A stretch of DNA of 64,000 nucleotides from Podarcis vaucheri. Taxonomy: Eukaryota. How positions within the stretch are numbered: the first letter of the stretch is position 1; every line of letters begins with the position of its first letter. The stretch is from assembly GCA_965113315.1 (NCBI GenBank), contig OZ220370.1; one strand, given 5' to 3'. Shown in pieces: positions 1,962 to 58,250 of this stretch. Below the pieces are notes generated by a model. It was not told the origin of the DNA. It worked only from the letters and a program-made list of their open reading frames with translations, and searched no databases. The position numbers and the translations under genes were made by a program.

Positions 1962-2165
1962 CAGTCATACCTTGGGATGAATACGGTTCGGGTTAGGCAT
2001 TTTCGGGTTGCACTCCATGGCGACCCAGAAGTAACGGAGCGCATTACTTCCAGGTTTCGCCGCGCGCGCATGCACAGACCGTCAAAATGACGTCACGCGC
2101 ATGCGCAGAAACTAGAAAACGTGACACACGGACACGGGTTACGTTCGCATCCCAAGGTACCACTG
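1962..2165. mobile_element. Tc1/mariner (pogo/Tigger-like) MITE
   Basis: TA|CAGTCATACCTTGGGATG ... CATCCCAAGGTACCACTG|TA: terminal inverted repeats, TA target-site duplication, CpG-rich interior. Confidence 0.85.
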
Positions 2166-2276
2166 TACTTATAAAAATCACACAACCTTACATTCTTTTC
2201 CTGTTGCTGACAAAATGTTTTGTGCAGCTAAACTTGTGATCATGCATTTTGTTTTGTGTCCCCCCCCCCTTTACAG

Positions 2277-2299
2277 GAAAGAACTTGAGATCTTCAAAG
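2277..2299 (+). CDS. DTNBP1: Dysbindin-1 internal 23-nt coding exon (exon 7 equivalent), (R)KELEIFK(A)
   Basis: Pyrimidine tract + TTACAG|G AAA GAA CTT GAG ATC TTC AAA G|GTAATT; matches dysbindin KELETFK; ends in phase 1 and joins exon 28870 in frame (G+CT=Ala). Confidence 0.9.
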
Positions 2300-3689
2300 G
2301 TAATTCAAATCCTCCCCCACCCCTTAGGACAACTTTTACAAAATCAAATGTAACAAAAGATATCTATTTCGCTTTTGTTTCTGTATTGCACTAACTTCTG
2401 GCAGACCAGTTCTGCAGATCAGCTTTAGCTACCATAATGCAAACAAGCGTCTTACTCTGTCTTCCTGGCTATATATGTTTCTTGTTGAAGTAAATAAGTA
2501 ATGCTCTGTTGTGCTGATATGCTGGTAGTAATTTGCAGTTTGAACTCCTTGACTGAGTGAAATGGGGAGGCTGGAAAGGGATATAGGAGGTGTGTACAGA
2601 CTTTTCATCCTCCCAACTGGCCTGAGGTGTTGAATGCTGTTAAGCATATGTTGCATGTGGGCATTGTGCCTATGGTGGATGACTACTAATCCATAGTGTG
2701 GCAGTGTGTTTCCTGCTGTTGTGGGCAGTTATGATGCACAACTTGTTGAGACAAAATGTCTGAGGCACAAAATATTAACCTGCCATTTTTAAAATTGTTA
2801 GCAATTGCTAAATGTGTGATTTTCCTTAGCTAAGTGAGTGATTTTATTATTGCATAACACAGTCAATTAACTTCAACAGATAACAAGTGGCACGTTATAT
2901 AAAATGCCACATTGTTTTAGCTTGGTATTGAAAATGTCTTGTTTGTCATGACAGCTTTAAACTCAGGCTCCATTAGTAGATGGCCAAAGAGTAGGTAAAT
3001 GTAATTCTGTGCTATTATTAATTCTTGCATTATAGAGTGAACAATATAAACTATGTTTTAAAAAAAATCTTCTAGCTTTGAGTTTTGAAAGTCAGTGGCA
3101 TATATCATAGCTGTCTTCTGTTGCATAGAATTTAGTGTGTTTATATATTCAGCCTGCCCTCTGATCTAGTGCTGCAGCTAAATGTCAGGTCTGTCCATTG
3201 GGGGCTGACCTGACATATATTATTGAGAACTGGATGGACAGGCTGGATAGAATTGATCCAGCTCAGCTCCTTCTACCTGGGTACCCAATTCGGCCTCAAA
3301 ACAGATTGGAAGATTAGCCAGGGTGTGTGTCACAGGAATCCACAGTGAGTCTTATCTTTCTTGTGAGGAGACACATCCATTCTGCTAAGGGTTATGTGGG
3401 TCTGCACCTCACGTTGAACTATAGAGAGATAATAGGGATACTGTTGCAGTACCATCTATCCTGTTGCCTAGAATTCATTCCTGACCAAGGTAGTCTTGGA
3501 GTTAGTGCTGGAGGATCCCAGGACTGAGTATTGAAATTCATTTTGTTAGTTTGAGTCCAGTTCTTTAATTTGTTAAGCTCGCATTGAATCCTGATTCTAT
3601 TTCTGAGGCATTAGCTACTCCTCAGGAATCCAATATGGGTACGCCTTTCAGATATCCTCATATCTTAGGAACCTGTCTGTACCAACCTA

Positions 3690-4110
3690 TCAGCGTTTAT
3701 TTACCAAAGCCAGACTAAATGTATTTCTATCGGAAGTGCTAAATGGTAGACTGAGAAGCATCCCTTATCAGAATAGGCTTTATGTTCTCAGGACATCGAT
3801 TGTATGAAGCATATCTTACTGCATTGTGGGCAGTACAAGCAAGCAAGGGACCAACTGATTAAACCCCTACTAGCAAATCTGCCAAGAAAATCGGAAGCCT
3901 CCCATATTAAATATCTTTTGGATGACAGGTCTAATGATATCATACTGGCTGTGGCAAAGTTTCTTTCAGAAGTTATAAGAAACAACGATTATCATGCTTA
4001 AGACCAAACAAAATGACCACCTCGGTTTCTCTATCTTGTGTGGCTGGCTATCTTAACTGTATTTTGTTCTGAAATTACTCTATGGGTCTTTGAACTGCAA
4101 TAAAGATTCT
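3690..4110 (+). mobile_element. 3' end of a degraded non-LTR retrotransposon (ORF2 C-terminus)
   Basis: ORF 3804-4001 HILLHCGQYKQARDQLIKPLL...AVAKFL resembles the H-x4-C-x2-Y-x3-R C-terminal motif of LINE ORF2s; AATAAA follows near 4099; clade uncertain. Confidence 0.45.
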
Positions 4111-4254
4111 CTCAACAAGCCCTCACAGCTTAGTGCCATCTGCAGATTTCCTCTATTCATTTGAGTCATTGATAAAAATATTGTAACAACCTCCGGGCAC
4201 AGGTCAGAACCCTGCAGCACCTCACTTGTCCCCTCCCCCCCCCACTCAGTCAAG

Positions 4255-4424
4255 GAGTTTGCGAACGATCTTTGGAACCCGAACGTCCAGTGTGTGTTCC
4301 ACAGCTTCTGGTTGGCTGCAGGAGCTTCCCGCAGCCAATTGGAAGCTGTGCCTTGGTTTCCGTATGTTCTGGAAGTCGAATGAACTTCCGGAATGGATTC
4401 CATTTGGCTTCCGAGGTACAACTG
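4255..4424. mobile_element. Partial Tigger-like MITE (right end only) with internal palindrome
   Basis: Ends in GAGGTACAACTG like the GGTACCACTG termini of other MITEs here; 20-bp hairpin at 4300-4350. Confidence 0.55.
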
Positions 4425-5352
4425 CTCAGTGCCTTGCATGTCTTCTGGGATGTCCTGGTTGCTGTCTGAATGTACCAGTCCCTGACGAGGAGAATGGCAT
4501 CACTGGCATATGTTAAAACTCAATATAGAAATTGGAGGAACTGGTTGCTTTTGATATTCCAAGGATTATTTTATATTTAATTTATATTTACGACTGTATT
4601 AGTTTTTGTCTTTTATGTTATTTTATGGATTATAACTTGCTCTTAGATCATTTGATATAGAAAGGGTTAGCAATTAAAGTTAATATTAATAAAGTTGTAC
4701 AACTGTGTGTATTTGGGCAGCTCTGTTGTAAACTACAATGATGATGAATAGTAAATATATATTTCTGACTTCCTAGTTTCATATAATAGTTAATTTTATT
4801 TCTCCCATGAAGCAATTATTGTAATTATTGAAAAACTAATTTTGACTGCCATAAAATGTCAGTGATTTCCAAATGTATGTATTCAAGTGGACACTTCCAT
4901 TTCTGCTGTAAGGCATACTTGATTATTTCTTTGTTCTAAATTGCAATATGAGTTTCAGCTACAGATATTTTTAGTAGAATAGGCAGTGCCAGCTGAAATC
5001 TGCCCCCCCCCCTTCAGAGCTTTGAAATAATTTTGAAAAAAATTGTAATAAAGTTTTCAATACTTTCTAACAGTTTCATGTGGAGATGAGAACTGGTCTT
5101 GAAATATGTCTTAAATAGCGATGTGATTGTCTATGAGGGAGTAGATGTATCTGAGAAGTCCTAACCATTTTCTGTGGATACTTGGATCTAATTACAGGTT
5201 TTATTTGCAACATGGCTGCCACTCATCCCCCCCCCCCGCTTCACTGAAAGTACGATACTGGCAAGGAAAGTACAAGATGCTATATTTGTTTGAGTTACTG
5301 ATACTTTACAGGGTAAACATCACTAGACTAGTTTGAGGTTGTTAACTATGCT

Positions 5353-6228
5353 GCGGGGGCAGACCATCCAAATTGGTCCCACCTTCCTGCAGAGAGGAAG
5401 GGTCGCGGAGAAGTCCAGTTGCACCAGGAAGTGATCTGACCATGGCACTTCTTTTGTTTCACTTTTACTTAATATCAGATCACCAACATCCATAGAGGTG
5501 AACACCAGGTCTAAGGCATGTCTGTGGCTATGAGTTGGGCCAAACTTATTCAGGGACAGCCCCATGGAGGCCATGCTTTCCACGAAGTCCCGAGTGGCCC
5601 CTTGTAAGGTCGTGTCAGCATGGATGTTAAAATCCCCTCGGACAACCAAGCTAGGTGTCACCAGGGGAACATCTGCCATGACCTGAAGCAGCTCGAGCAG
5701 GAAATCATTGGTGCAGCGGGGAGGTCGGTACACCAAAGGAATCCTGTACTGCCCCTATTGCCCAACTTCCAGAACATGCACTCAGAAAACTGGGTATTCC
5801 CAATAGGACGCTTGGTGCAAACTAATGACTTCCTAAAAAATCACTGCAACCGCCCCTCCCCGCCCAGATGACCTGGGTTGCTGTGCGCAAGAGAAACCTG
5901 GTGGGCAAGCAGCGGCAAGGATAGGCCCATCTGCTTCATCCAACCAGGTCTCTGTCACACATGCCAGGTCAAATCCTCCATCCACAATCAGGTCGTGGGT
6001 GGCAGTGGTCTTATTCATCATTGACCTGGCATTGCACAGCAACACTTTCAGGTCATGTGGGTTTCCCTTGCTGATTCCAGTATCCTTCTGGTCAGGACCA
6101 GACCCGGAGGTAGGGATAGTCCTCAGACAACAACTAAACCTGCCTCCTCGGTCATAACATGGTCTGGTCTTAGCATAGCTCCTCCTGCCCATTTCTAGTG
6201 ATATGATCCTCCATTTCTAGTGATATGA
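5353..6228 (-). mobile_element. L2/CR1-group LINE ORF2 fragment: complete APE endonuclease domain, no RT
   Basis: ORFs 5833-6192 and 5323-5736 (same frame) give LLCNARS, VTETWL, GRGGAVAV, VYRPP, GDFNIH, LDLVF and SDHFLV, the AP-endonuclease motifs of LINE ORF2; linker disrupted by two compensating 1-nt indels. Confidence 0.9.
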
Positions 6229-7670
6229 GCCTTCATCTGTACTTCTAGTGTTTTTTTCTAGGTTGGTGGTGGGAGGTAGGGATATCTTGGATAATTTTAA
6301 TGATAATTTTAATGTTAACCTCTTTCTGAACTTTGCAAGGTATATACTGTATGACAGGGATTCAGCAAGTGAGACATATCAGTAGAAGCTTGAACAAGAA
6401 ATTTGTGTCTTGCACAATGGAGCTTCCCCCTTGCCCTCTATGCCCCTTGAAATTGTTTTGGGGTGGGGAGTTGGGAGAACTCCTTGAACGGTGCACGGGG
6501 GGGGGGGGAGGGAGGAGTGCTATTCCATATGGCAAGTAGAAATGCATGCCCTGACAGAACGATTGGCATAGCATGATGTTGAATTATTCCGTATGTCTTT
6601 ACTGAGATACGCAGTGTATTCCTTACTGTTGCCTGTTGAGCAGATAATGACGAGTGAGGGTATGCAGGTGATGTTTCTGTTAATGAAACTAGCTTCAAAT
6701 TGCAGCCTTAAAATAGTGCAAAAAGAGGGAACGTAATGCTCCTGTGTAAACGTATGATGCTTCCACAATTACAGTGTTGCATGTATGATACTGGGTAGCT
6801 CAGAATGTAGAACTGGATAAGGTATAAAAAGAGCAGTTAAAATCTGGGAGGGGACACTTTGCACCCCCCCTTTTTCTCCCACTGTGCACAAACAGGTTTA
6901 ACTGTATGCTTGCATTTAAATCATGTTTTTTTGTTTTTTGCTTGAGAAAGCATTTCTAAATTGTGAAAACTCACATTGTTGAGATTATCAGGCACAGGAA
7001 TGTTAATGGGTATTTGGCTTAACAGAGCAAATCATAATAAGCTGTGATTGAATAATTTGTGTGATGTGTGTATCGCACATTAGCACAGTGTTTTCAAGTT
7101 CAGACTCTCTGTGTGTATATGCACGTGTGTGCGCACACCACACACATGCAAAAGGGGGGAAATGCATTTCTAGCAAGACTAGTACATAATCTGTTCTGAA
7201 GGGTTATTAAACACAACCATAATTGGTAATTTTGGGAGGGGAGAGCCAAATAAACTGTTCCTATTTAAACTGAAATCTGTTCATCAGTGGCTTAATTGAA
7301 TAATGTATTGCATTTTGTTAGACAATCAAGTATTAGCTGTTAGTGTATTCCTTATGACCACTTACCACCCCTTTTTCAAACGGCATGTGGTAGCTCCCAG
7401 ATATAGGCATGCATTCTGGAATACCACATCTCCTGACAGCTTATGTTCAGTTTATGGAGCAACAGTGGAAGAATTTGTCCTTGTTTGTTTCAGTTTTATG
7501 TGAATGACCAATTGATGTGGTCTGTCCTGTGTAGTTCTCGAGTGGGGGAATGGATGTGTAGTATCATTCTTTTACGACGGGAAAGATGTACATCACTAGA
7601 GCTGCTTAGTAATTGGAGGTTTCACTTGATCTGCACTGTGCTTCTGTTTACTTGCCTGTTTCTCTCTGCC

Positions 7671-7713
7671 ATGTCTTCTCCAGGAACCAGTGAGAATAAT
7701 CGGAAGAATTCTT
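7671..7713 (+). CDS. DTNBP1: Candidate alternative DTNBP1 exon (alternative first coding exon MSSPGTSENNRKNS, or 30-nt cassette 7684-7713)
   Basis: GCC-ATG at 7671, open frame to a phase-1 donor TCTT|GTAGGT (7714) that splices in frame to exon 28870; a pyrimidine tract + CAG|G acceptor at 7683/7684 is in the same frame; no transcript evidence available. Confidence 0.5.
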
Positions 7714-10700
7714 GTAGGTGAAAGTTTATTAATGGTTTTCATCTTTAAAGCTCTCATTGTATTAAAATTCCAGTTAAAGCAATTTGTAAGCTATTTTTTG
7801 ATCTTTGGTTTTGCTTAACTTGTACTGTGTATTCTGATGGTGGAATAGCTGGAGATCTTATTTATGTAGCTGAGAAGAGTAAATGAAAAAATATTCCTGC
7901 ATATTTATAGCAGGCATTGTTATTCCTTTGCCTTGATTATAAAATGAAATTTTGCAGGCATGTATCTAAGCTGATGATGATCTAGGTCTGTAATTATGTA
8001 AGAGTTCATAGAAATGTACATTGCCAGGCACTGGATAAAATTTGCCTAGTACACACTTCTTTCTTTAAAAAAGAAATCATTAAAATTAAATATGATATTA
8101 GAGAACAGTAGTCAGGAATCCATTTCTGTTGAATCATTTCTGTAATGTTGACTGCTGGCATCCTTTAGTACAAGCATGTTTTAACATGAAGCAGGTGGTT
8201 TCATATTTGGTAGATTGGAGAAAAAGAGTGGTATAAGAGTGGTATACCAATCCAGAACTTTTTTTTCTGCTAGTAATGTTTAAATGAGAGGTTGGTTTCT
8301 GATGTGTTCCTTTTTGCTTTTAAAGCTATCATTGCAAAGCCATGTTTTTAAAAGAGCATTTCCCCACATATGTGAAGAATGAAACAATCAAAATCACTTT
8401 TAATTTTTTTTAAAATTTTGACTAAAATGTCACATAAAAGATGCAATTTTGATTTTTTAATGTTTCAAATACATAGTCTATGCATGATTAAACTATTTGC
8501 TTGCTATAAGATATTTGCTTGGCATAAATCCTAGTGTAGAATATGTTTTCATGCAGTTGGGCAATGTTTTCAGATTAGTGTTATCAAAAAAATGTTAGTA
8601 CTTTACTCTATTTCCACTATTAAAAATAAATAAAAGATGTACTAATTCAAAAATGGCAGAAATTATTATCCAAAGTGAGAATTCCATGTTACAGTTCTTG
8701 CTTTTAAAAAAAAGGGATAAACTCACATTTCTGCGAGTTGGCACTCAGAATTTTGTGTGTTATTCTTTACAGTCTTCACTCTTCTTGCAGTGTCTTTTCG
8801 TTGCTTTGTTTTGTCCTGTTTTACATGTTAGCATGTGTGTGTGTATGTTTTAGTTAAGCCAACACTGAAGCTTCTCTGAAGTCTAAAAGAGCCTTTTCCA
8901 GTACCTAGTTCCCAGATGTTGTTAGATTACTGCCCCCATCACACTACCATGGGGAAACTGTTCCAGTGACAATGCCCACATGCTTCCCCTGTCTAGGGTT
9001 TGTTTTAAAGGCCCAGGGTAGAGCTTCACATAGTCATTCTGTTGTGAGCTGGCCTCCCCTGCACCTGTACAGACATTGACAGTTAATGCATGAGAGGAGC
9101 ACAACCCCAGTTGCATCCCCATCAGCTCTAGGCACAGCATGCAATGACCCTGCTTCTGCCAGTCTGTAGGCATACCTACAGGCCAGGGGTTCAAATCCCT
9201 TTGTTTCGTACGCCTACTATTGTATGAGCACAACATACAGTCTCAATGGAAGAAGGAAAGCCTGCACAGTATGTTACCATCCTAGCTATATGTGCAGAGA
9301 GTACATGCAGCCCTACTGGGACAAAGGTTCAATATCATCTGGTGACACAAAGACTCTTGCCCCACAGCCCAGGGGTCAGCACATGCAGCAAAAGGCATTG
9401 ACAGCATCAACCTCCAGAGGCTCACTGTATACAATACTGGACTGGGAAGCAGGATGTGGCAGTTTCAGGTCCACCAGAAAAAAGGGCAAATGTAGCCCCC
9501 CCCCCCTTTTGTATGCCTGGTTAAAGTCATGTCAGGCAAAAGAGAATGTGATTTCAGGACTTGAAGTCATGCTGCAAACACCATGGAGCAGTGCCTGAAA
9601 CCATATACTATAACAGCTGACAACAATCAAGCACATAATGAGCCATTTGTCTTCTCTTCTGCCAACTTCAACACCTGCATAGATGCCAGGAATCCAGAAG
9701 GAATCCTAGCTGGGTGAAACAGCTCACATTTTACATGCAAGGGACCCAAGTTTCAATCTGAGTATTACTCCATACCAGGCACACCAGAAAAGTGCTGCAT
9801 GGTACCAATAACTCAGCCTGTGTATGGGCCAACAGTCCTTTTCGTTTGCCTCACTCCTGGCAACCTATGTGATCAATCCATTACATACCCTGCTATTTTG
9901 CCTGATAGGTTGGTTCTGCTGGATAGGCAGAGGCAGAGGGCTCACTGCCTGCTTTTATTTTCATTCACTGCTGTACATCCCAAGAGGCATTCTAACCTCA
10001 TGGTAAAGGATCCTTGACTGAACAGGGGTGAAGGGCCACTCCTAAACCCTTCAAGCTCTCAGCCTCTGTGATTTCCATCCTGAGGCCAGCTGAAGCCAGA
10101 TCATGCTAGAGTGTGGGAAAGCAATCTTTATCTATCAATCTCTGGGAATAAGGAAACAACACATATGGCAGTTATAGCACTGATTGATCAGCATCTGGGG
10201 TGGGGTAGAACTCAGTAAATCCTGCAAGGAAAAGGCAAACATTTGGGATTGGCAAGATGCCACTCCAGCAGGGTGCTTGTCCTGTGCTTTGCACCAGCCA
10301 TACCTGCTTCATGTTAGGAGTATCTTCACTTGTTGCAAAACTGTCTGCCATGGAGCTTACAGTGGTAGCTGCGGAACAGTCAGCCTGAGGAGACCAAGAG
10401 TAATGAGTAGTAGGCAGCAGCTGGATTATAGCTGAATCTGGATGCAGAAAGGCAGAGAGAGACAAGGGAGAGTGGTACAACCCAAGTGCTCATGTGTTCC
10501 TCCTGCAGTGACTGTGAGTACACACCCCTTTTTCATCCTTGGGGGTTGCAGTGGAAATCCGAGTGTGATCTTGCAATGCATTAGGGATAATGGGGTTCAA
10601 TAGCAGTAGTTGAATTTGAGTGCTGGGTCTTTGCTAACAGCTTACCTGCAATGTTGGGATGAGTGCTTCACCTTAATGTGGAAAGTATTACTTTCTGCTG

Positions 10701-28869: not shown

Positions 28870-29025
28870 CTGAGCTTGATGCAGAGCATGCACAGAAGGT
28901 GTTGGCTATGGAGCATACCCAGCAAATGAAGCTAAAGGAGCGGCAAAAGTTCTTTGAAGAAGCTTTTCAGCAGGACATGGAACAGTATCTCTCCACAGGC
29001 TATCTGCAAATAACTGACAGACGAG
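28870..29025 (+). CDS. DTNBP1: Dysbindin-1 exon (exon 8 equivalent), 156 nt: [52 protein letters not shown]
   Basis: CTCCTGCAG acceptor; near-identity to vertebrate dysbindin; donor is non-canonical GAG|GCAAGT. Confidence 0.97.
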
Positions 29026-30024
29026 GCAAGTAGTGAAAATGTTCCGTGTAATTTTTAAGCTAGATCCCAAGAGGAAGCAAGATTTTAGTTCCTTCAGTAC
29101 ATCTCTATCCTGTTTTTTCATTTATAAGTTTTTATTGGCTGGCTTGTTTGAGCATTCTCTTCTTCAACCAGTGAGCAGAATGAGACCCACTTAGCTTCTA
29201 AGAATGTAACAGCAGGCAAAGGACTGTCCTATATGCAGGACTGCGATTGAGGCGCTGCAGCTGGAAATAGCATAGCACCAGTGGGTGGGATGAGGGATGA
29301 TAAATTTTAATATTGCAGTTGCTTGCTCCACATGAACAAGTAAGTGACAGATTGCAGTTTTGCTGTAGCTGTTTTCCTCCACAATGATGAATTGTATGGA
29401 AGAAAACACAGCCAAATCCGAAGGCCTGTGGTATAGCAACTGTATAGATGTATGAAAGCTGTAGGTTCTGAAGTAAGTTTAATGGTTTAAGACTTTTCCA
29501 GATGGATTCTGTTGATCTTCCACAGTTCAAGTGCCCTGGATCCAGCACCTTCGTTGTCACCGTAGGATTTCCTACACATGTACAAAGGACTTTTACAATG
29601 CCTGAAACTTCTGGGGCTTCTATCACAACCTAGCACATTCTGTTAGTCTCAGGGTTAATTCTGGAGAAATTAAGCCACCTCTTAATAGCAGTTTGAGATT
29701 GGGATGTTAGCTTCTTGCAATGGCAGTTAAGATTAGTTTTACTTACCTGTCTCATAATGATAAAAATCTTTTTTAAAATGTAAGTTGCATCATCCTAGGT
29801 TTGGGAATGAAGTCTGAAGTAGTTCCATTACATGAATTTCAGAAAGTAAAACTGTAAATCCAGTGCAAGTATTTTTTTAAAAAAAATAAAGGTAAAAGGA
29901 TGCCTATTCACTAACCGTAAATGTTATCTTCCAGTATGCTTAATTTATGCCATAGTTTTCTCCAAAAGTGATCATATATGGGTGAGATTTTCAAGTTTAC
30001 TTGTTTACCTTTTTCTTATGGCAG

Positions 30025-30168
30025 AGCCGATTGGAAGCATGTCTTCTATGGAAGTAAATGTGGACATGTTGGAACAAATGGACCTTGTGGATATGTCTGA
30101 CCAAGAAGCCTTAGATGTCTTCCTTAATTCAGGAGGAGAGGACAGTACTATGTCATCTCCTATGATAG
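30025..30168 (+). CDS. DTNBP1: Dysbindin-1 exon (exon 9 equivalent), 144 nt: [48 protein letters not shown]
   Basis: GGCAG|AG acceptor, ATAG|GTATAA donor; dysbindin-domain signature; phase 1-1. Confidence 0.97.
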
Positions 30169-30802: not shown

Positions 30803-31041
30803 GATCAGACAGCAGTACTGGTCAAAATGAAATTAGTCTTCAAGTTCCCACCCAGTCAGCGTTGAGAGAGTTGTCCTCCTCTTCTTCAGCCTGGACTGAT
30901 TCTGCCAGCCAAGATGCCAGTGAAGGAGAATCGCCTGTGATCCAGTCCGATGAGGAAGATGTGCAAGTAGACACTGCTGTAAATACTGAAATGAAAGGCC
31001 CTTCTGATGTTAGTGATGAGAGTGATTCGCAAACAATTTGA
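30803..31041 (+). CDS. DTNBP1: Dysbindin-1 last coding exon, acidic/PEST C-terminus ending ...SDESDSQTI*
   Basis: TTTTGAAG|GA acceptor; QNEISLQVP, ESPVIQSDEEDVQVDTA match dysbindin-1A C-terminus; TGA at 31039-31041. Confidence 0.95.
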
Positions 31042-50870: not shown

Positions 50871-51415
50871 TAAATTAATCCTTTGCCCAGACCTCTTGAG
50901 GGAAAAAGGCAGGAATACAAATGCAGTTAATATAGAAGTAAACAGAATCTGGCACAGGAATGTATAGATAGGCCTCAGTTCTTGAAGACTGACAGCCTCT
51001 GCACAGAGGAACCAGAAGTTGCCAATTTCCGGCAGCACCTGATTCCTGTTTTGCAGCGAGAGGAGAAAGAGCAGTGATGGAAAAAGCAGTGTGTGCCGGG
51101 CACAGGCACCAGCGTAATAAACACCATATTTCTTTCTCTCTTAGCAGCTCAGCCTCACTCACTAAATCCAACCTCACTAACAATTACACAGCAAGCAGCG
51201 GTTGCCAGCTCCTGCTTAATAGTGGGGAGGCTGCCAAATCAAATTGAGTGGGGGAGTCAACATTCCTCTGCAAATGGATGTGCTCAGCGTCAGGAGGAAT
51301 AAGCCTTCCAAACCACTGTTTGCACTAAATCAGAGCTGGCAACTGCAGACAAAAATACTGTTTGCATTTCGGGTTGCACGTTCTAAGCAGGGCCAACGGC
51401 AAGGCTTCTGCTTAC

Positions 51416-51912
51416 CTTATATACACACTTGTGGAGGTCACTGAGAACGCCTTTGTCTTCCTCCTCTTCCTTCACGGTCTCTTTTTCCTGAGAGAAGAGT
51501 CGCCGCCGGCCCGTTTTCTGTGGGACTTCGACTTCCTTCGCCTTGTTCCGGAAGCCGTTTTTATGAACCACGCCATTGATGAGTCCGTTTTTGGGCTCAT
51601 ACCGGGGGAGAGACTGGAATTCGTAGTTGTTCTCCGAATGTACCTCCAGGGGGCCTTTCCTCTTTTCTAGGACCTCCTTTTCAAAGAGGACTTCCTTCTC
51701 CAGTCTCTTGTGCTCCTCGGCAGAGAGGGAGTCGTAGGAGAGCAAGTACTGGCAGTACGCCTCCTGCAGCTTTGCTAACCTGTCCTGTGCAGTTTTGGGG
51801 ATCCGCAGCAGGTCTGCCAGCTTGTTCCATTTCTTGAGGTCAGTCACTTGCTGCATGCCCCCCATTTCGTTGATCAGTTGGAAAAAGCAGGCCAAATCTA
51901 GCTCACATCCTC
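51416..51912 (-). CDS. JARID2: JARID2 exon (ARID domain): [61 protein letters not shown]...LHKCVYK
   Basis: ACCCAG|GA ... AAG|GTAAGC; 497 nt; ORF 51383-51895. Confidence 0.97.
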
Positions 51913-54900
51913 CTGGGTGTCAGTGAAGTGGAACAGCAGGAAGGGAAAGGACATACAGGGGGAAGAAAAAACATGGTTAGGAAAACGTGACAGCAGACCG
52001 TATGCAATCCAGGCCAACTTATTGTGGAAGTGGCTGCATCACTTCGGACTGTAAATAGGAGCAAGACTGAAAACAAATCTGTGCAAACGAATGAAGAATA
52101 AAGCCCCTCAATATAGAAAATCAGATGTCAGTGTTATTTCTGGACCATCCGTCTTTAAAAAAAGGGAATCTGAAGGAAATTAAGCCACTGCAAAATCACT
52201 GGGCTTTCGTAGTAGTTACTGCACTTGCCTTGGGATTTGCCACTCACCTGCCCACCTGCATTAAGTTTCAACTGCCTTTGGGTATCTTTCTAAATGGCAA
52301 ACTGAGCCTGTGCCACATAGGATGCTCCCCCCCCCCAACCAATCATGTGAATATTGCTTTCTTTTTCTCCTAGCCTTAAAGGCACTTTAAAGCTAAAAAA
52401 AGGAAAGAGTTGTTCTTTTGTGCAAATGCCATTACAAACATCTGCAGTCAAATTAATGCCCCCACTGCACCACACAGATCTGCTTCAAACTGGATTTGAG
52501 GTCACTGTTGTGGTAGCTATTACTGTTGTGCTACACACCCTACAGAACGTACTTTGTGCCCTCGGTTTCCTATCTAAAGATATTATGGTTTCTTGATCAG
52601 CATTTATGCAATATCCAGGATCGATCTGTAGTTACTGCATTTATCAAGCAGCCATGTGATGCATACACCAGCCCAAAACCTGTCCATAGAAGCTCAGATT
52701 TATCAAAAGGATAATTCATAGGTTGGTGGACTGCAGGTTAGTGGGATCTATTTTGCTTTTAAGTGGTGCTGAGAGATGCACTAACAGGAGCTTGGTACAA
52801 AAGACATACCCTCAGAATTAAAGAATTCTGAGCCTCCAAATTTGTTGTGAGTATCACAGCTAAAATAAGAGTTTGCAGTTCTTCCACACAAAAATCCACT
52901 TCTGGTTACCCCAAGCTATCTTAATTTCTGCAGCATAATTTAGGATTTTGGTGCCGGGGTGGGGTGTGGGGTGAGGCATCATTTTGTTGCTGCTATTGTT
53001 AAACATTTGGGAGTCAATTGTTTGCCAGATCTACTTAGCTGCTGATCTATTTAACAGCAAGTCATTCAGTGATAGATCCTGCAGACCTATCTTCTGCCCA
53101 CCCCTGGAGTAATTAATTTGTGCTCATTATCTGATGTCAAAGTGCCTTTACAAAGCTGACAAAGTCTCTTACTGGCAAAAAATGATAATGGAATAATGCT
53201 TCAACTTTGGCAAGTCATTGCAGGGAGGGAGGGGAGGCACAGAGAGTGGCGTGATTGCTGCAGGTGAAAGTAGCCCTTCCATGTTTTGTCAAGGAGTGCG
53301 TGCTTTCAGGCAACACAAAAACAGGGCCAAACCAACTCTGGGTTTAATGAGGCTTGGTAGCTTTTCTTGAGCAATTTTATGATATCTGACCCTTAAGAAA
53401 AGGAGGCGACTGCTACGGATTTTGTGCTCGTTGTAAAATGTTCAAGATCAGCAAAATGATAGAGCCTTTTTCCCCAGGGGAATGAACCAAGGAGAAAAAC
53501 AAACACACACACACACTACATAAAACCCCCTTTATCTGCTGGCAAGGGGTAGACAAATACATAGCTTTCTACCTGCCATAAAGATTACAGAAAACCAAAG
53601 GCCATCTCAGAAGGACAGTATCTGAGATAATAAACTGATGAAGCTAACAACTCATATTTAATTAGGACACCGCTAAACGGGTTACAAACCTATCACACAT
53701 TTCTGAAATTTGGTGTGCCATCAGCAAAGTAGCATTTTATTTAGACCAAACAAAGGTAGCAATGCAGTATGCAAACTTTGGAGCTATACAGAACTGTTCC
53801 TCAGGTATGAAGTACACGGAAAGCTGTGAGAATGGGGTTTTTTTGTATTGTGGCTCTTGCTTGAAGTTTGTTTACATTTTAAGGTGGTGGTGAAGGATTT
53901 CTTGCAGCTACAATTTGTTTAAAACCTCACTATCTATTAAGTTTCATCTTGCACAGAGGTAATAAAAGATAAAAAGAGTAATGGAAGAGTTTATTTCATG
54001 TTAGCTAATCACCTGTAATATTCCATATGAAAAAATCTGAGAAACCTTCCTGAAGGTTTTGTATGAAAAGGGGGAAAGAAAGTCCCTTCCAGCACCATTT
54101 CATTAGTCAAATGATATGATGGAAAACTACAAATGTCCAATCTAACGCTCGAGCTTCTAGTTTTAATTAAAAACAGGTAGCACTTTTTACAAGAATCTGA
54201 TGAACATCATAGTTCACAAAGGTCTGTACTGCTACCTAGTCATGATTCCTAAACAGACAGATACACCACCTTGCCTGAGGCGAGAATGAAGGCCAAGGCA
54301 TCCCTTGGCCAAAAGATAAAATGAAATAAGTAATAATTGTTTTGAGTTTTAGTTTTCCACACACAAAAAGAAGACACCATGCTGCATAAATTGCTGAAGG
54401 CTTGTTAGCTGCCTTGTTGGTTCAAACCCCTTTCAATTCTGCAGGTTTTACGTGGTTAAAAGCTAAGGAGAAAGGGTCGCTTTGGGAAATATGTATGATG
54501 AACACTGCAGCTTAGATAACTCTGTACCAGGGAACACATACCAAGCAGTCTTCAGAATTACAAACTGAAGTATAAGCCCCAGTTTAAAGTTACTGCAAAT
54601 ATCCAGTGCAATGTATGTGCATGTTGGCTAAGCAGCCTGTTTGTAAGATACGTTGCACACAGCATAAGAGCTAGATAGAGGCAAGCGTTTACTGCAAGGG
54701 CTGGTTCCCAAGCTCATCGAAACCACATGCAGTGGAGTATCAGGACCATGTGTACAATTATACTGCAATTAAGATATTAAATTCATCATCCTAGGGTGTA
54801 TATGAATGTATTCTATAAGTGGGGCATTTGGACAAGCCTGGTGCCCTGCCAGATATAGAAGCTATCACCAGTTTGGCAAATGCATGAACCCAGGAAAACA

Positions 54901-57220
54901 TTTGAAAGCAGCTTCTGCAGAACATCCTCAGCAAACTTTTACACGCACAGAGTCCTTAAACACTTGACATATGTGCTTACAATTTCCAGGGCTAGCCTTT
55001 GCCAACTGTTTTCTGACTGTGGTTTTTTGTTAGTTTTACACTGAAAAATCCAAAACTTATGCATCCTTTCAGAACTCATTGAAGTTATTTTCTATGCTGG
55101 AAAGCTGGTTCTTCTAGTCATCAAATTATGAGATTTGGTAGAATGCAGATTATTTGACAGAGAAATGAGCAAACTGATATTTCACTGTCAATGATTTCAA
55201 GATTTTAATTTGTTTTCATTGGTCCTTGCAATGAGGGAAGCTTCAAACAGTGTCAGGCTGCTCAGTATATAAAAGCACTAAAGAGCTCATTCTCTTAAAT
55301 TTGACATTTACTACACTTCTTTGACTCATGACATTATTAATACAGCTCTACTTTGTAAGACTGGATTTCTTTCATAACATGCTTGCTATATATGAACCAT
55401 AACGATAAGGAATGGAAGTTTATTTTGAGTTCAACTTTGCAAGGAGGGGGGAGGGAAAGAACCCTCTTTTGAATCTAGATAAAATAAAAACTGTCAGAAG
55501 GAATGGCATTTACACAGCATTTCAAATACTAATGCTATAGAATCCTTATATCAACTCAGTGGTTGGATATAGAACACGCTCAGTAAGTCTTGGGCTCACA
55601 TACTCCCTTGCAGAACACCAGAAGCTTCCACTTCCATCTGAAATTAATGGCAGAACTTGGGACAAACTAAGGTTAATCTTAACCACTGTTAGCTGAAACA
55701 AGCCGGCTTCACAAACTATGGTTTGAAGTTTGCTTGTTTCAAGAATCGGTAATTAAGAATAACTTCAGTTTATCTCGTCTCAGACTACATATCAAGTGAC
55801 AGATACTGTAAAAGAGAAGCAACACTTTCCAAGCTCCTCCTCAAAGCTGTGCTAGAGAAGGATGAAGAAAGTGTGAGCCCAAGACTCACTCATTCTTCGA
55901 ACGTTAAATCATCTGTAGTGTGGCTAAATATACACATGCATACAGTTTTAATCAGACACACAAGGTCAGTTTCACAACTAAAGCGTTTCACATCAACTAT
56001 CATCTATTGCCTTTTAACAAATTATCTTATTGATTAGCTTTAATAAATGTTTCATACAACCAAAATATCAATATGCTAAAGGAGTTACTAAAGGAAATGT
56101 TGTATCATAAAGGCTGGAATCCTACTTATCATTAGGCTGCTTACATTCCACTGAAGTCAAAGGCTGCCAATTACAATTTATTTTTACTACAACTTGCCAG
56201 TTAATTTAAAACACTATTTCTTATTCCTGGAAGAAAATACCCATCTTCACTATTTTTTTTTTAAATTTCCAGAATGAAAATCAGCTTCAAAAATAAAACA
56301 ACTGTGGCCATCTCTCAGCCCTAGCAATTAAAATTTGACCTCATCAATTAAAACTGACCTCCGCAATTACACTGATTAAAGCTTGCAACTGTAACAGGAG
56401 CTCTAGCAAATTTATTAAATTTTAAAATTGCTTAGGAACAACAGATTAAAAGGGACCTTCTTCCAAAGAATAAAGAGTATTCTAAAGGGAATTGTTGTTT
56501 CACCAAATAGTATGCCACTTTTAAAAACATACAACCATGTGCATCCTATCTGATAGCAGAAAGCAAACCAACTCAATTAAATAATCAAACACAGCAGAGG
56601 TACCTGCTGAGTAAGTTTACAAAACTGCCATTTTGCTACAAACTACACTTCAATGCTTGTCATCCAAGATTTGTTAAATGCCTGAAGATTGATGAAAATT
56701 TGTAATTTTGGTGATTTAGCTATTTGAACTGAAATCACTTAATCAAAGTTGACTGGGGTGGCGTGTGAGGAATGTTTAAGGAGAAGAGAGTTATTAAACC
56801 AAATTGTTAACTTGTTTGCACCGCTGTGCGTCATTGCTACACACACCTTGCTAGGAAAACACCAGAAAACCCTACTGTAATGCAGACTGGGGACACTTCA
56901 ATGAGCATGACTACACCATTTTCTTTAGGCATAACGTGAGGTAGCCTTGAAACATGAGCAGATATGCCTCTTTTGCTCTAGGAGAAATAAAACAACATTT
57001 CTCTATAGCCAGCAAAGAAGGATCAACATGTTGAAGTGAAGCATAACAGGGAAACAGCTCAGTATGCAGCTGCACTGGACCTGGCTTATGAATCAGCTAT
57101 GAATGAAGCCTAGTGTCCTGCAGTTTTCAGAGGAGGCCTGTCAATCTGAGAAGGAACTGATGCTCAAAATAGGAACCTGCTATAAATTGGGAAAAGAACA
57201 GAACACAACAAAGGACTCAC

Positions 57221-58250
57221 CTATGAGTGGAAGCTCATCCATTGTAATGCCCTGAGATTTGAGGTGCTTCTTGATACAGGCCAGCCGCTGCACATTGGGC
57301 CCCCAGCGCCTGCTCAGCTTGTGAATGTGTTGTATTTGCGTCACAAAGCGCATTTCTTCATTCAGCTTGCACTCGGGCCTCCAGTCGGGAGGAGGGATCA
57401 CCCTGCACATCCCATACTTCTCAACCTGAGCACGGATCGACTCGATGTATATCAACGGGTCATGGAACTCCTTTGGGGAAGGCTTGAAGATAGGGATCTC
57501 CTCCATCATGGCCCACCCAGACTTGACGCTGACCTTCTCGTGCTTCCCCGTTGAGTCATGTGGCTTGTGCAAGGACTCGGTTTGAGAGGTAGAATGATTT
57601 TCACAGGAGGCATTTTCAGTTTTGCTATGTGCTTGTTTCCCTGGCATGTTCTTCCCAGCAGCAGCTCTCTTCGGCCTGTTTCTTTCCAGACTTTTCTGTG
57701 GCACTTCCTGACTTCCAGGCTTCTTCACGTGGCCGTTCAGCAAAGGCTTCTCCGCAGGCGCCTTTTTGCTTGGGGCTTCAGCCACGCTGACTGGCCCCTT
57801 TAGCTTCTTGGTCGGCGACTGTGTTTTGTCTATGTGGTTTGCCTCTTCCAGTCTCCTTTTTGAATTGCGCAGCCCCTCCCTCAACTGCCTCCCTACCTCC
57901 TTAGTGCATGTCTTTTGGTTCAACTTGCCATTGACCTTGACACCATTAACAGCGGTGTTGTTGGGCTTGGCCACTCCAAGAGATAGCACCTGTTTGCGGG
58001 TTTTTGCATTGCTACTTTCCGTTTTCCCTGAGATTGTATGGTTGACAGGTGAACTGGGCTTGTGGTGATTTAGTTTGGTTTCCTTGACCAGTTCTTTCTT
58101 GGCTTTGGTGTATGTGACAGTTCCTTTTGTCACTGTTGCAGTGTACTTCACAGTTTTGGACGGTGAAGGTCTGACTTCTCTCATCTTTTTGGCACTGGCT
58201 GTGTTTGCACTCGGAGATGACATTCGAGTGACACCATTGACCTTTGAAAC
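57221..58250 (-). CDS. JARID2: JARID2 large exon (exon 7 equivalent; basic region, JmjN, ARID start)
   Basis: CCCTAG|GTT TCA AAG GTC AAT ... ATA G|GTGAGT; 1030 nt; [35 protein letters not shown] is JmjN; upstream exons lie beyond the window. Confidence 0.97.

What the first reader, a model, noticed from the sequence alone, without database searches (positions are those of the whole stretch)
7640..7720. Hidden in-frame DTNBP1 exon in the long intron: short dysbindin isoform or 30-nt microexon
Seen: GCC-ATG (7671) opens MSSPGTSENNRKNS up to a phase-1 donor T|GTAGGT (7714). Spliced to 28870 it reads ...[14 protein letters not shown]... and gives a 582-nt CDS (193 aa) made only of the C-terminal dysbindin and acidic regions. 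The same stretch has a strong acceptor (CTTGCCTGTTTCTCTCTGCCATGTCTTCTCCAG|G at 7683/7684) defining a 30-nt, phase 1-1 cassette in the same frame (…EIFK-GTSENNRKNS-SELD…), with TGC motifs in the pyrimidine tract. Established: the N-terminal coiled coil mediates BLOC-1/dystrobrevin binding, DBNDD1/2 resemble the C-terminal domain alone, and UGC near the 3' splice site marks SRRM4-dependent neural microexons. Inference: an internal promoter or dual-use exon could give a BLOC-1-independent, DBNDD-like dysbindin. I vaguely recall a similar N-terminus in mammalian minor isoforms; this is unverified.
Basis: partly seen in the sequence, partly recalled or inferred. Interest (0 to 1): 0.7.

Follow-up and report, generated by a model that had tools for sequence, protein, structure and literature searches.

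The report
Ancient short-dysbindin first exon
Inside the long intron of a lizard's dysbindin gene lies a spliced extra exon, kept from fish to primates, that likely starts a short protein lacking most of the part needed for its usual trafficking complex and built like the sister protein DBNDD2, which suggests an overlooked fourth form of dysbindin and a likely origin for its sister genes.

Summary
In this lacertid DTNBP1, 7671-7713 is the coding end of an exon in intron 7. One of 8 runs laid has a contig covering 7543-7713 joined to exon 8 at 28870, ATG and pyrimidine tract included. The same 14-codon start, joined to exon 8, occurs in records of teleosts, a bird, a marsupial, bats, ruminants and monkeys, so the isoform is already in database gene models. 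I found no paper on it. The 30-nt microexon is unsupported: 0 of 70 proteins show it and a bird-like locus lacks the acceptor AG. New here: DBNDD2 has an exon of the same length, phase and position with a similar leader, and aligns with the short isoform from residue 1 (56%). DBNDD2 is therefore likely a duplicate of this internal unit. Not shown: the transcription start, tissue, protein, BLOC-1 independence, casein kinase 1 binding, presence in human or mouse. A 26-kDa mouse-brain band dismissed as degradation is a candidate product. The scan had not noted this on other DNA.

The parts
2277..2299 (+). DTNBP1 exon 7 (23 nt), last exon before the long intron 7
   Evidence: six upstream coding exons found in G000 C27
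7543..7713 (+). Alternative, likely first, exon; extent covered by the junction contig (true 5' end not shown)
   Evidence: run X11 record 2
7583..7731 (+). Block conserved with bird-like locus L001 (leader, coding part, donor)
   Evidence: 78% over 149 nt
7586..7609 (+). Out-of-frame upstream ORF of 7 codons; its ATG at -85 is kept in L001 (8 codons)
7550..7561 (+). 3-codon upstream ORF, overlapping an in-frame upstream ATG at 7554; neither is kept in L001
7671..7713 (+). Coding part of the alternative exon: 14 codons plus one base (phase 1), MSSPG leader
7682..7683 (+). AG proposed as microexon acceptor; no use seen, absent in L001
7714..7719 (+). Splice donor GTAGGT, identical in L001
28870..29025 (+). 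Exon 8 (156 nt), shared acceptor; ends in a GC donor
30025..30168 (+). Exon 9 (144 nt)
30803..31041 (+). Exon 10, coding part to the stop

Best explanation
This is a spliced, conserved alternative exon in DTNBP1 intron 7 that likely acts as a first exon from an internal promoter and is predicted to encode a 193-residue acidic dysbindin that likely works outside BLOC-1, like DBNDD2/CK1BP, as a binder and damper of casein kinase 1. Shown: splicing 7713 to 28870 with the leader included, conservation of ATG, length and phase, and the same exon layout in DBNDD2. Inferred: a promoter just upstream of about 7540; translation from 7671, tuned by a conserved upstream ORF; loss of residues 1-171 prevents normal BLOC-1 assembly; kinase binding by analogy; DBNDD2 arose by duplication of this unit with loss of exons 1-7. 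My odds: first-exon isoform about 0.9, shared origin with the DBNDD2 leader exon about 0.8, kinase-binding role about 0.4.
For: Run X11 (related organism B) has a 206-nt contig: 171 nt on 7543-7713, 30 nt matching 28870-28899 at 29 of 30, and only 5 unaligned letters at the 5' side rather than an upstream exon. 34 of 241 fetched proteins carry MSSPG; 31 of them have it 15 residues before the exon-8 product and 25 start with it (the set was gathered by targeted searches, so this is no frequency). Named records include XP_010165452.1 (bird), XP_073894936.1 and BAE73074.1 (macaque), KAF6344364.1 (bat), XP_031432376.1 (herring). Two assembly-derived proteins, P0061 and P0154, join 15 residues of the upstream tract and the leader to exons 8-10. 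L001 keeps ATG, frame, donor and the -85 ATG but has an in-frame stop 30 codons upstream. Own-genome DBNDD2 has a 156-nt phase-1 exon and, 18.7 kb upstream, ATG + 14 codons + T|GTAAGT; P0242 starts with nearly that leader. Nine DBNDD2 leaders score above 99.8% or more of 2175 random ATG-started 14-mers. P0125 and P0242 align from residue 1, 98 of 176 identical. CK1BP binds CK1 delta and epsilon and resembles dysbindin's acidic C-terminus (PMC8616157, passages).
Against: The junction was seen in 1 of 8 runs laid (of 24 listed), in one study, in a related organism; the run is only guessed to be RNA, its tissue is unknown, and the 30 letters on the exon-8 side are one short of the tool's 31-letter bridging rule. 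Two raw-read runs, read to 12% and 6%, had no read on the exon. Contigs cannot show a start; 7543 happens to follow a GAG and would give an in-frame 171-nt exon. Most supporting records are gene predictions and may be projected from one another. No human, mouse or rat record with the leader was among those fetched; a hamster model of similar size has another first exon (P0054) and the coelacanth model differs (P0165). Leader substitutions against L001 show no strong coding signal (7 same, 3 silent, 4 changed codons). Upstream ATGs could suppress translation. The DBNDD2 leaders were picked by a pattern that favours M-S/T starts (11 of 58 DBNDD2-type proteins, 8 of them scored), and the own-genome one was the best of 147 candidates on the same profile. 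The short form keeps a predicted helix at 14-56 that could still bind BLOC-1 subunits. No binding was tested.
Confidence: 0.72

Rival explanations
1. 7684-7713 is a 30-nt SRRM4-dependent neural microexon that adds ten residues to full-length dysbindin.
For: In frame, phase 1-1, pyrimidine fraction 0.82 and TGC at -17.
Against: No 2299-7684 joint and no loose end before 7684 in the runs laid (4 runs spanning both sites, 4 on the exon alone). 0 of 70 proteins with a recognisable exon-7 end and exon-8 start have this insert; 6 have other inserts. L001 reads CCG GGA, so the AG is gone while ATG and donor stay (one species). TGC occurs at 19 of 56 comparable sites. No paper held both DTNBP1 and microexon.
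Confidence: 0.05
2. The segment is mainly a longer internal cassette entered from acceptors 85-130 nt upstream of the ATG, inserting a hydrophobic stretch plus the leader into long dysbindin.
For: 6 of the 34 MSSPG proteins have it inside longer models: wallaby (3), two bats, conger. The frame is open for 78 codons upstream in the lizard and 29 in L001, with no indel over 87 nt. The X11 contig begins at 7543 after a GAG, 171 nt in frame.
Against: The X11 contig has no upstream-exon loose end. The entry points differ among models, some of which skip exon 6 or exon 7. L001 closes the frame at -30 codons and does not conserve the 7543 region. Upstream codons change amino acid in 12 of 29. 25 of 34 records start at the leader Met.
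Confidence: 0.1
3. The transcript is made but gives little protein; the conserved block is a regulatory leader whose upstream ORFs keep it silent, or a relic of the unit that became DBNDD2.
For: Three upstream ATGs lie within 7543-7670; reviews name only isoforms 1A, 1B and 1C (PMC7000454, PMC5666726, passages); low or no cover in 7 of 8 runs.
Against: MSSPG, exon length and phase are kept from teleosts to primates; the frame joins exon 8 correctly; all junctions precede the stop exon, so no decay signal is expected; an unexplained 26-kDa band is seen with a C-terminal antibody (PMC3046962).
Confidence: 0.12

Closest known systems
Database DTNBP1 short models: XP_010165452.1 (Antrostomus), XP_073894936.1 and BAE73074.1 (Macaca fascicularis), KAF6344364.1 (Rhinolophus), XP_031432376.1 (Clupea)
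   Same: Same MSSPG start, 14 codons plus junction residue, then exons 8-10; 185-211 aa.
   Different: None of the 12 lacertid records listed (334-351 and 271 aa) is of this form; no function or paper found for any of these records.
DBNDD2 / CK1BP / dysbindin-2
   Same: Short phase-1 leader exon of 43 coding nt, 156-nt second exon, Pfam Dysbindin domain starting at residue 18-19, 56% identity from residue 1 between P0125 and P0242.
   Different: Separate gene (C25) with no upstream coiled-coil exons seen; leader ends in a KRLP-like motif; the mammal-type DBNDD2 hits start inside the second exon or have unrelated N-termini. CK1 binding is reported for CK1BP only (PMC8616157, passages).
Dysbindin-1C
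   Same: N-terminally shortened DTNBP1 product with the same C-terminus.
   Different: 1C lacks only 81 residues and keeps the coiled-coil domain (PMC3046962, PMC5666726, passages); it comes from an alternative splice site and downstream start (PMC2614472). The form here lacks 171 residues and has its own exon and N-terminus.
DBNDD1 / dysbindin-3
   Same: Acidic, disordered dysbindin-domain protein (PMC9510119, part 1 of 4); own-genome gene has a candidate 10-codon phase-1 first exon in a CpG island.
   Different: Leader is shorter and its use was not checked here; the second exon did not align.
SRRM3/4-dependent neural microexons
   Same: In-frame short stretch with a pyrimidine tract and TGC upstream.
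   Different: No inclusion seen, acceptor not conserved in the one ortholog read, and the tract is transcribed as leader.

Membership tests
Alternative first exon of DTNBP1 | Spliced to the next exon at the predicted donor | tested here: met
   (1 of 8 runs); P0061 and P0154
Alternative first exon of DTNBP1 | 5' end is a transcription start, not an acceptor | tested here: inconclusive
   Contig ends near 7540 with 5 loose letters and no upstream exon, but contigs cannot show starts
Alternative first exon of DTNBP1 | ATG, frame and donor conserved | tested here: met
   DNA in L001; proteins from teleosts to primates
Alternative first exon of DTNBP1 | Protein is made | not testable with these tools
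   No proteomic or footprint data; the 26-kDa band in PMC3046962 is only a candidate
SRRM4-dependent microexon | Inclusion between exons 7 and 8 | tested here: not met
   No joint; 0 of 70 proteins; sensitivity limited
SRRM4-dependent microexon | Conserved acceptor AG and UGC enhancer | tested here: not met
   AG absent in L001; TGC at 19 of 56 background sites
SRRM4-dependent microexon | Neural, SRRM3/4-dependent regulation | not testable with these tools
   Run tissues are not given
DBNDD2-like protein (works-like claim; it is not a DBNDD2 gene) | Dysbindin domain without the N-terminal coiled-coil region | tested here: met
   PF04440 at 19-163 of P0125 and 18-164 of P0242; only helix 14-56 is confident in the model
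DBNDD2-like protein (works-like claim; it is not a DBNDD2 gene) | Homologous leader exon and exon layout | tested here: met
   with the selection caveats stated
DBNDD2-like protein (works-like claim; it is not a DBNDD2 gene) | Binds CK1 delta or epsilon | not tested
   No kinase sequence was fetched and no complex job was sent
BLOC-1 subunit | Carries the full coiled-coil domain that isoforms 1A-1C share | tested here: not met
   Lacks residues 1-171; keeps about 41 of the 110 residues of predicted helix 103-212
BLOC-1 subunit | Assembles into BLOC-1 | not testable with these tools
   No solved dysbindin chain matched; the BLOC-1 architecture paper was not held

The most novel reading that the evidence does not exclude
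DTNBP1 is a two-in-one gene: an internal promoter older than the teleost-tetrapod split makes a DBNDD2-like casein kinase 1 regulator, DBNDD2 (and probably DBNDD1) are duplicates of that inner unit, and its protein is the 26-kDa brain band long read as a degradation product. Mutations and knock-outs upstream of intron 7 would then spare it, while those removing the intron-7 promoter would delete it, confounding BLOC-1-dependent and independent phenotypes.
Probability: 0.3. Interest if true: 0.75.

Novelty: new variant of a known kind. Interest (0 to 1): 0.5.

Why it matters
Reviews count three dysbindin-1 isoforms, all with the coiled-coil domain. A fourth, conserved across bony vertebrates and recognised in principle by the C-terminal antibodies in use (PA3111, residues 196-352), would bear on how blots, C-terminal assays and mutants are read. 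The sandy mouse deletion ends at nucleotide 12377 of this same intron (PMC3022736), so whether it removes the inner start is a direct question. It also addresses a doubt in print, whether DBNDD1/2 are true paralogs or only share a domain (PMC9510119, citing Ghiani and Dell'Angelica 2011): a shared leader exon argues for duplication of a whole transcription unit. Internal-promoter short isoforms are common and this one is already in databases, which limits surprise.

Tried and rejected
Run search: no RNA holder on record was listed for 7000-8200. (X1, X5, X23, X21 on 2000-8600) was dominated by repeats and gave only 2-5x unspliced contigs near the exon; X6, X7 and X14 likewise (an X14 contig runs unspliced through the donor). 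These blanks are not evidence of silence. The two exons lie 21 kb apart, so the junction could only be read as a loose end. A second donor reading at 7717/7718 breaks the frame and was not seen. An extended N-terminus from ATGs at 7443, 7515 or 7554 was rejected as the conserved form because L001 has no in-frame ATG within 300 nt and a stop at -30 codons. A retrocopy as the source of the junction: the only extra DTNBP1-like copy found in G000 holds the last exon alone. PDB sequence search found nothing. No complex prediction or fold search was run; the short model is mostly low confidence (mean pLDDT 60). Literature searches; none returned a paper describing this isoform; none was aimed at the DBNDD2 leader exon. 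PMC8151252 concerns 3' UTR length only. PMC10636040 lists DTNBP1 among genes with alternative start use in T cells without naming the start; 0 hits in its 11 supplement files held as text, one further file unreadable. Four papers were not held, and Text S1 of PMC3046962 was not seen.
Full report
Setting. The window holds the 3' half of DTNBP1 on the + strand, tail to tail with a JARID2-like gene on the - strand (that gene name is recalled, not from a call). The exon at 28870 translates to a stretch identical to Podarcis muralis dysbindin, so the animal is likely a lacertid lizard. Six coding exons lie upstream in G000 contig C27. The 23-nt exon at 2277-2299 is therefore exon 7, the long intron is intron 7 (26.6 kb), and 28870-29025, 30025-30168 and 30803-31041 are exons 8-10. 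The finding's 201 bases match once in the genome.

Observation. The microexon features are not rare in this intron: 12 of 948 YAG sites have an equal tract and 19 of 56 good tracts have TGC nearby.

RNA evidence. I laid 8 of 24 listed runs. One search (four runs, 2000-8600) showed no joint and no raw read on the exon. In one search (four contig runs, 6250-8600), run X11 of organism B has a 206-nt contig of depth 91.8 that covers 7543-7713 with four differences and continues with 30 letters matching 28870-28899 at 29 of 30. Intronic contigs in the same run have depth 6, but contig depth is a poor measure of level. The contig includes the ATG and the whole pyrimidine tract, so the tract is exonic in this molecule. 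Its 5' side has only 5 unaligned letters, not an upstream exon. Limits: one run, guessed to be RNA, tissue unknown, 30 letters rather than the 31 the tool asks for, and contigs cannot show a start. The other three runs have only 2-4x unspliced pieces.

Conservation. A search with exon 8 returned P0061, an assembly-derived protein in which the upstream tract and an MSSPG leader join exon 8. Follow-up searches and cluster look-ups gave 34 proteins with MSSPG among 241 held: 31 with the same 15-residue spacing to exon 8, 25 starting at the leader Met, 6 inside longer models, 2 with a short upstream extension and 1 unspliced. They come from a bird, tammar wallaby, four bat genera, sheep, musk deer, cattle, Old World monkeys, a mole-rat (different junction), tarpon, conger, herring and salmon. 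Most are predictions and not independent. No human, mouse or rat record with the leader was among those fetched. A degenerate pattern found one locus in metagenome contigs, L001, whose leader translates like the bird record. It keeps ATG, frame and T|GTAGGTG, and an out-of-frame ATG at -85, but reads CCG GGA where the lizard has CCA GGA, so the proposed acceptor is lost. The only lizard-L001 match is 7583-7731. No 10-residue insert was found in 70 proteins with both flanking exons recognisable; 6 had other inserts.

Link to DBNDD2. G000 has DBNDD2 on C25 and DBNDD1 on C26 (named by likeness, from my knowledge of the family). The DBNDD2 exon matching exon 8 is also 156 nt and phase 1. The best of 147 upstream ATG-to-GT candidates is an ATG with 14 codons and T|GTAAGT, 18.7 kb upstream beside a CpG-rich patch. 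A search with that DBNDD2 exon returned 105 unnamed proteins; 11 of 58 DBNDD2-type proteins held have such a leader, 9 of the 11 at their N-terminus, and P0242 starts with 11 of the same 14 residues as the own-genome candidate. The eight database leaders of exactly matching length and the own-genome one score 10-21 against the DTNBP1 leaders, against a null mean of -11 (sd 6.7, n 2175); shuffle p values are 0.0004-0.016. The picking pattern favours similar first residues, so these values are generous. P0125 and P0242 align from residue 1 with 98 of 176 identities, and the Pfam domain starts at residue 19 and 18. I infer that the inner start predates the duplication that made DBNDD2. No tree was built.

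Mechanism. AlphaFold gives full-length dysbindin a long helix at 103-212; the short form keeps only its last part, at 14-56, followed by low-confidence acidic sequence. Isoforms 1A-1C all have the coiled-coil domain (PMC3046962, passages). That the N-terminal coiled coil builds BLOC-1 is established knowledge, recalled and not tested here. The short form would thus likely not assemble normally, though its helix might still bind or compete. CK1BP binds CK1 delta and epsilon and resembles the acidic C-terminus of dysbindin (PMC8616157, passages; the original paper was not held). I commit to a DBNDD2-like kinase binder at about 0.4. The conserved upstream ORF suggests translational control (inference).

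Literature. Seen as passages: PMC8151252, PMC10636040 (plus a supplement search), PMC3022736, PMC8616157, PMC7000454, PMC5666726, PMC2614472, PMC3046962; PMC9510119 as part 1 of 4; other papers as search listings only. Ten searches gave no description of this isoform, but subscription papers and the 2009 handbook chapter were not searchable, and AceView's 16 variants may include it (PMC3046962). The legend of Figure S2 of PMC3046962 reports a band of about 26 kDa in wild-type mouse brain with an antibody to residues 196-352, called a probable degradation product; acidic dysbindin pieces run above their mass in that paper, so a 20-21 kDa short form would fit. This link is a guess, as the exon was not seen in mouse here. 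The sandy deletion runs to nucleotide 12377 of intron 7 (PMC3022736); in the lizard the exon lies 5.2-5.4 kb into that intron.

Verdict. A real, ancient alternative exon, most likely a first exon, already in database models but apparently undescribed, with a newly noted homology to the DBNDD2 leader exon. The microexon reading is unlikely. New variant of a known kind; interest 0.5.

Noticed in passing
window 29026-29031: Exon 8 ends in a GC donor (GAG|GCAAGT); the matching DBNDD2 exon has a GT donor.
   Followed up: no
G000:C33:28835531-28835775 (L009): A lone copy of the DTNBP1 last exon, about 79% identical, with a frame break near its start; no other exon within the 10 kb fetched.
   Followed up: partly
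window 7217-7226: A perfect CArG box (CC, six A/T, GG) about 320 nt upstream of the contig's 5' end; not kept in L001.
   Followed up: partly
window about 7235-7270 and 7370-7415: Two short stretches align well with L001 in the global alignment but give no significant local match; possible promoter elements.
   Followed up: no
window 7443-7719: The leader's frame is open for 78 codons upstream, with in-frame ATGs at 7443, 7515 and 7554; L001 is open for 29 and P0122 for 155.
   Followed up: partly
G000:C26:51989022 (L006): Candidate DBNDD1 first coding exon of 10 codons, phase 1, donor GTAAGT, in a CpG island.
   Followed up: no
proteins P0054, P0106, P0108, P0130, P0201: Other intron-7 exons in gene models: a different first exon in hamster, and unrelated inserts in baboon, a sea turtle, chicken and snub-nosed monkey.
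   Followed up: no
window 2000-2220, 4210-4430, 5315-6198: High-copy repeats in intron 6/7 that draw reads from elsewhere in the genome.
   Followed up: no
window 51383-51919 and 57180-58250, - strand: Large coding exons of the neighbouring JARID2-like gene, which converges on the DTNBP1 3' end.
   Followed up: no
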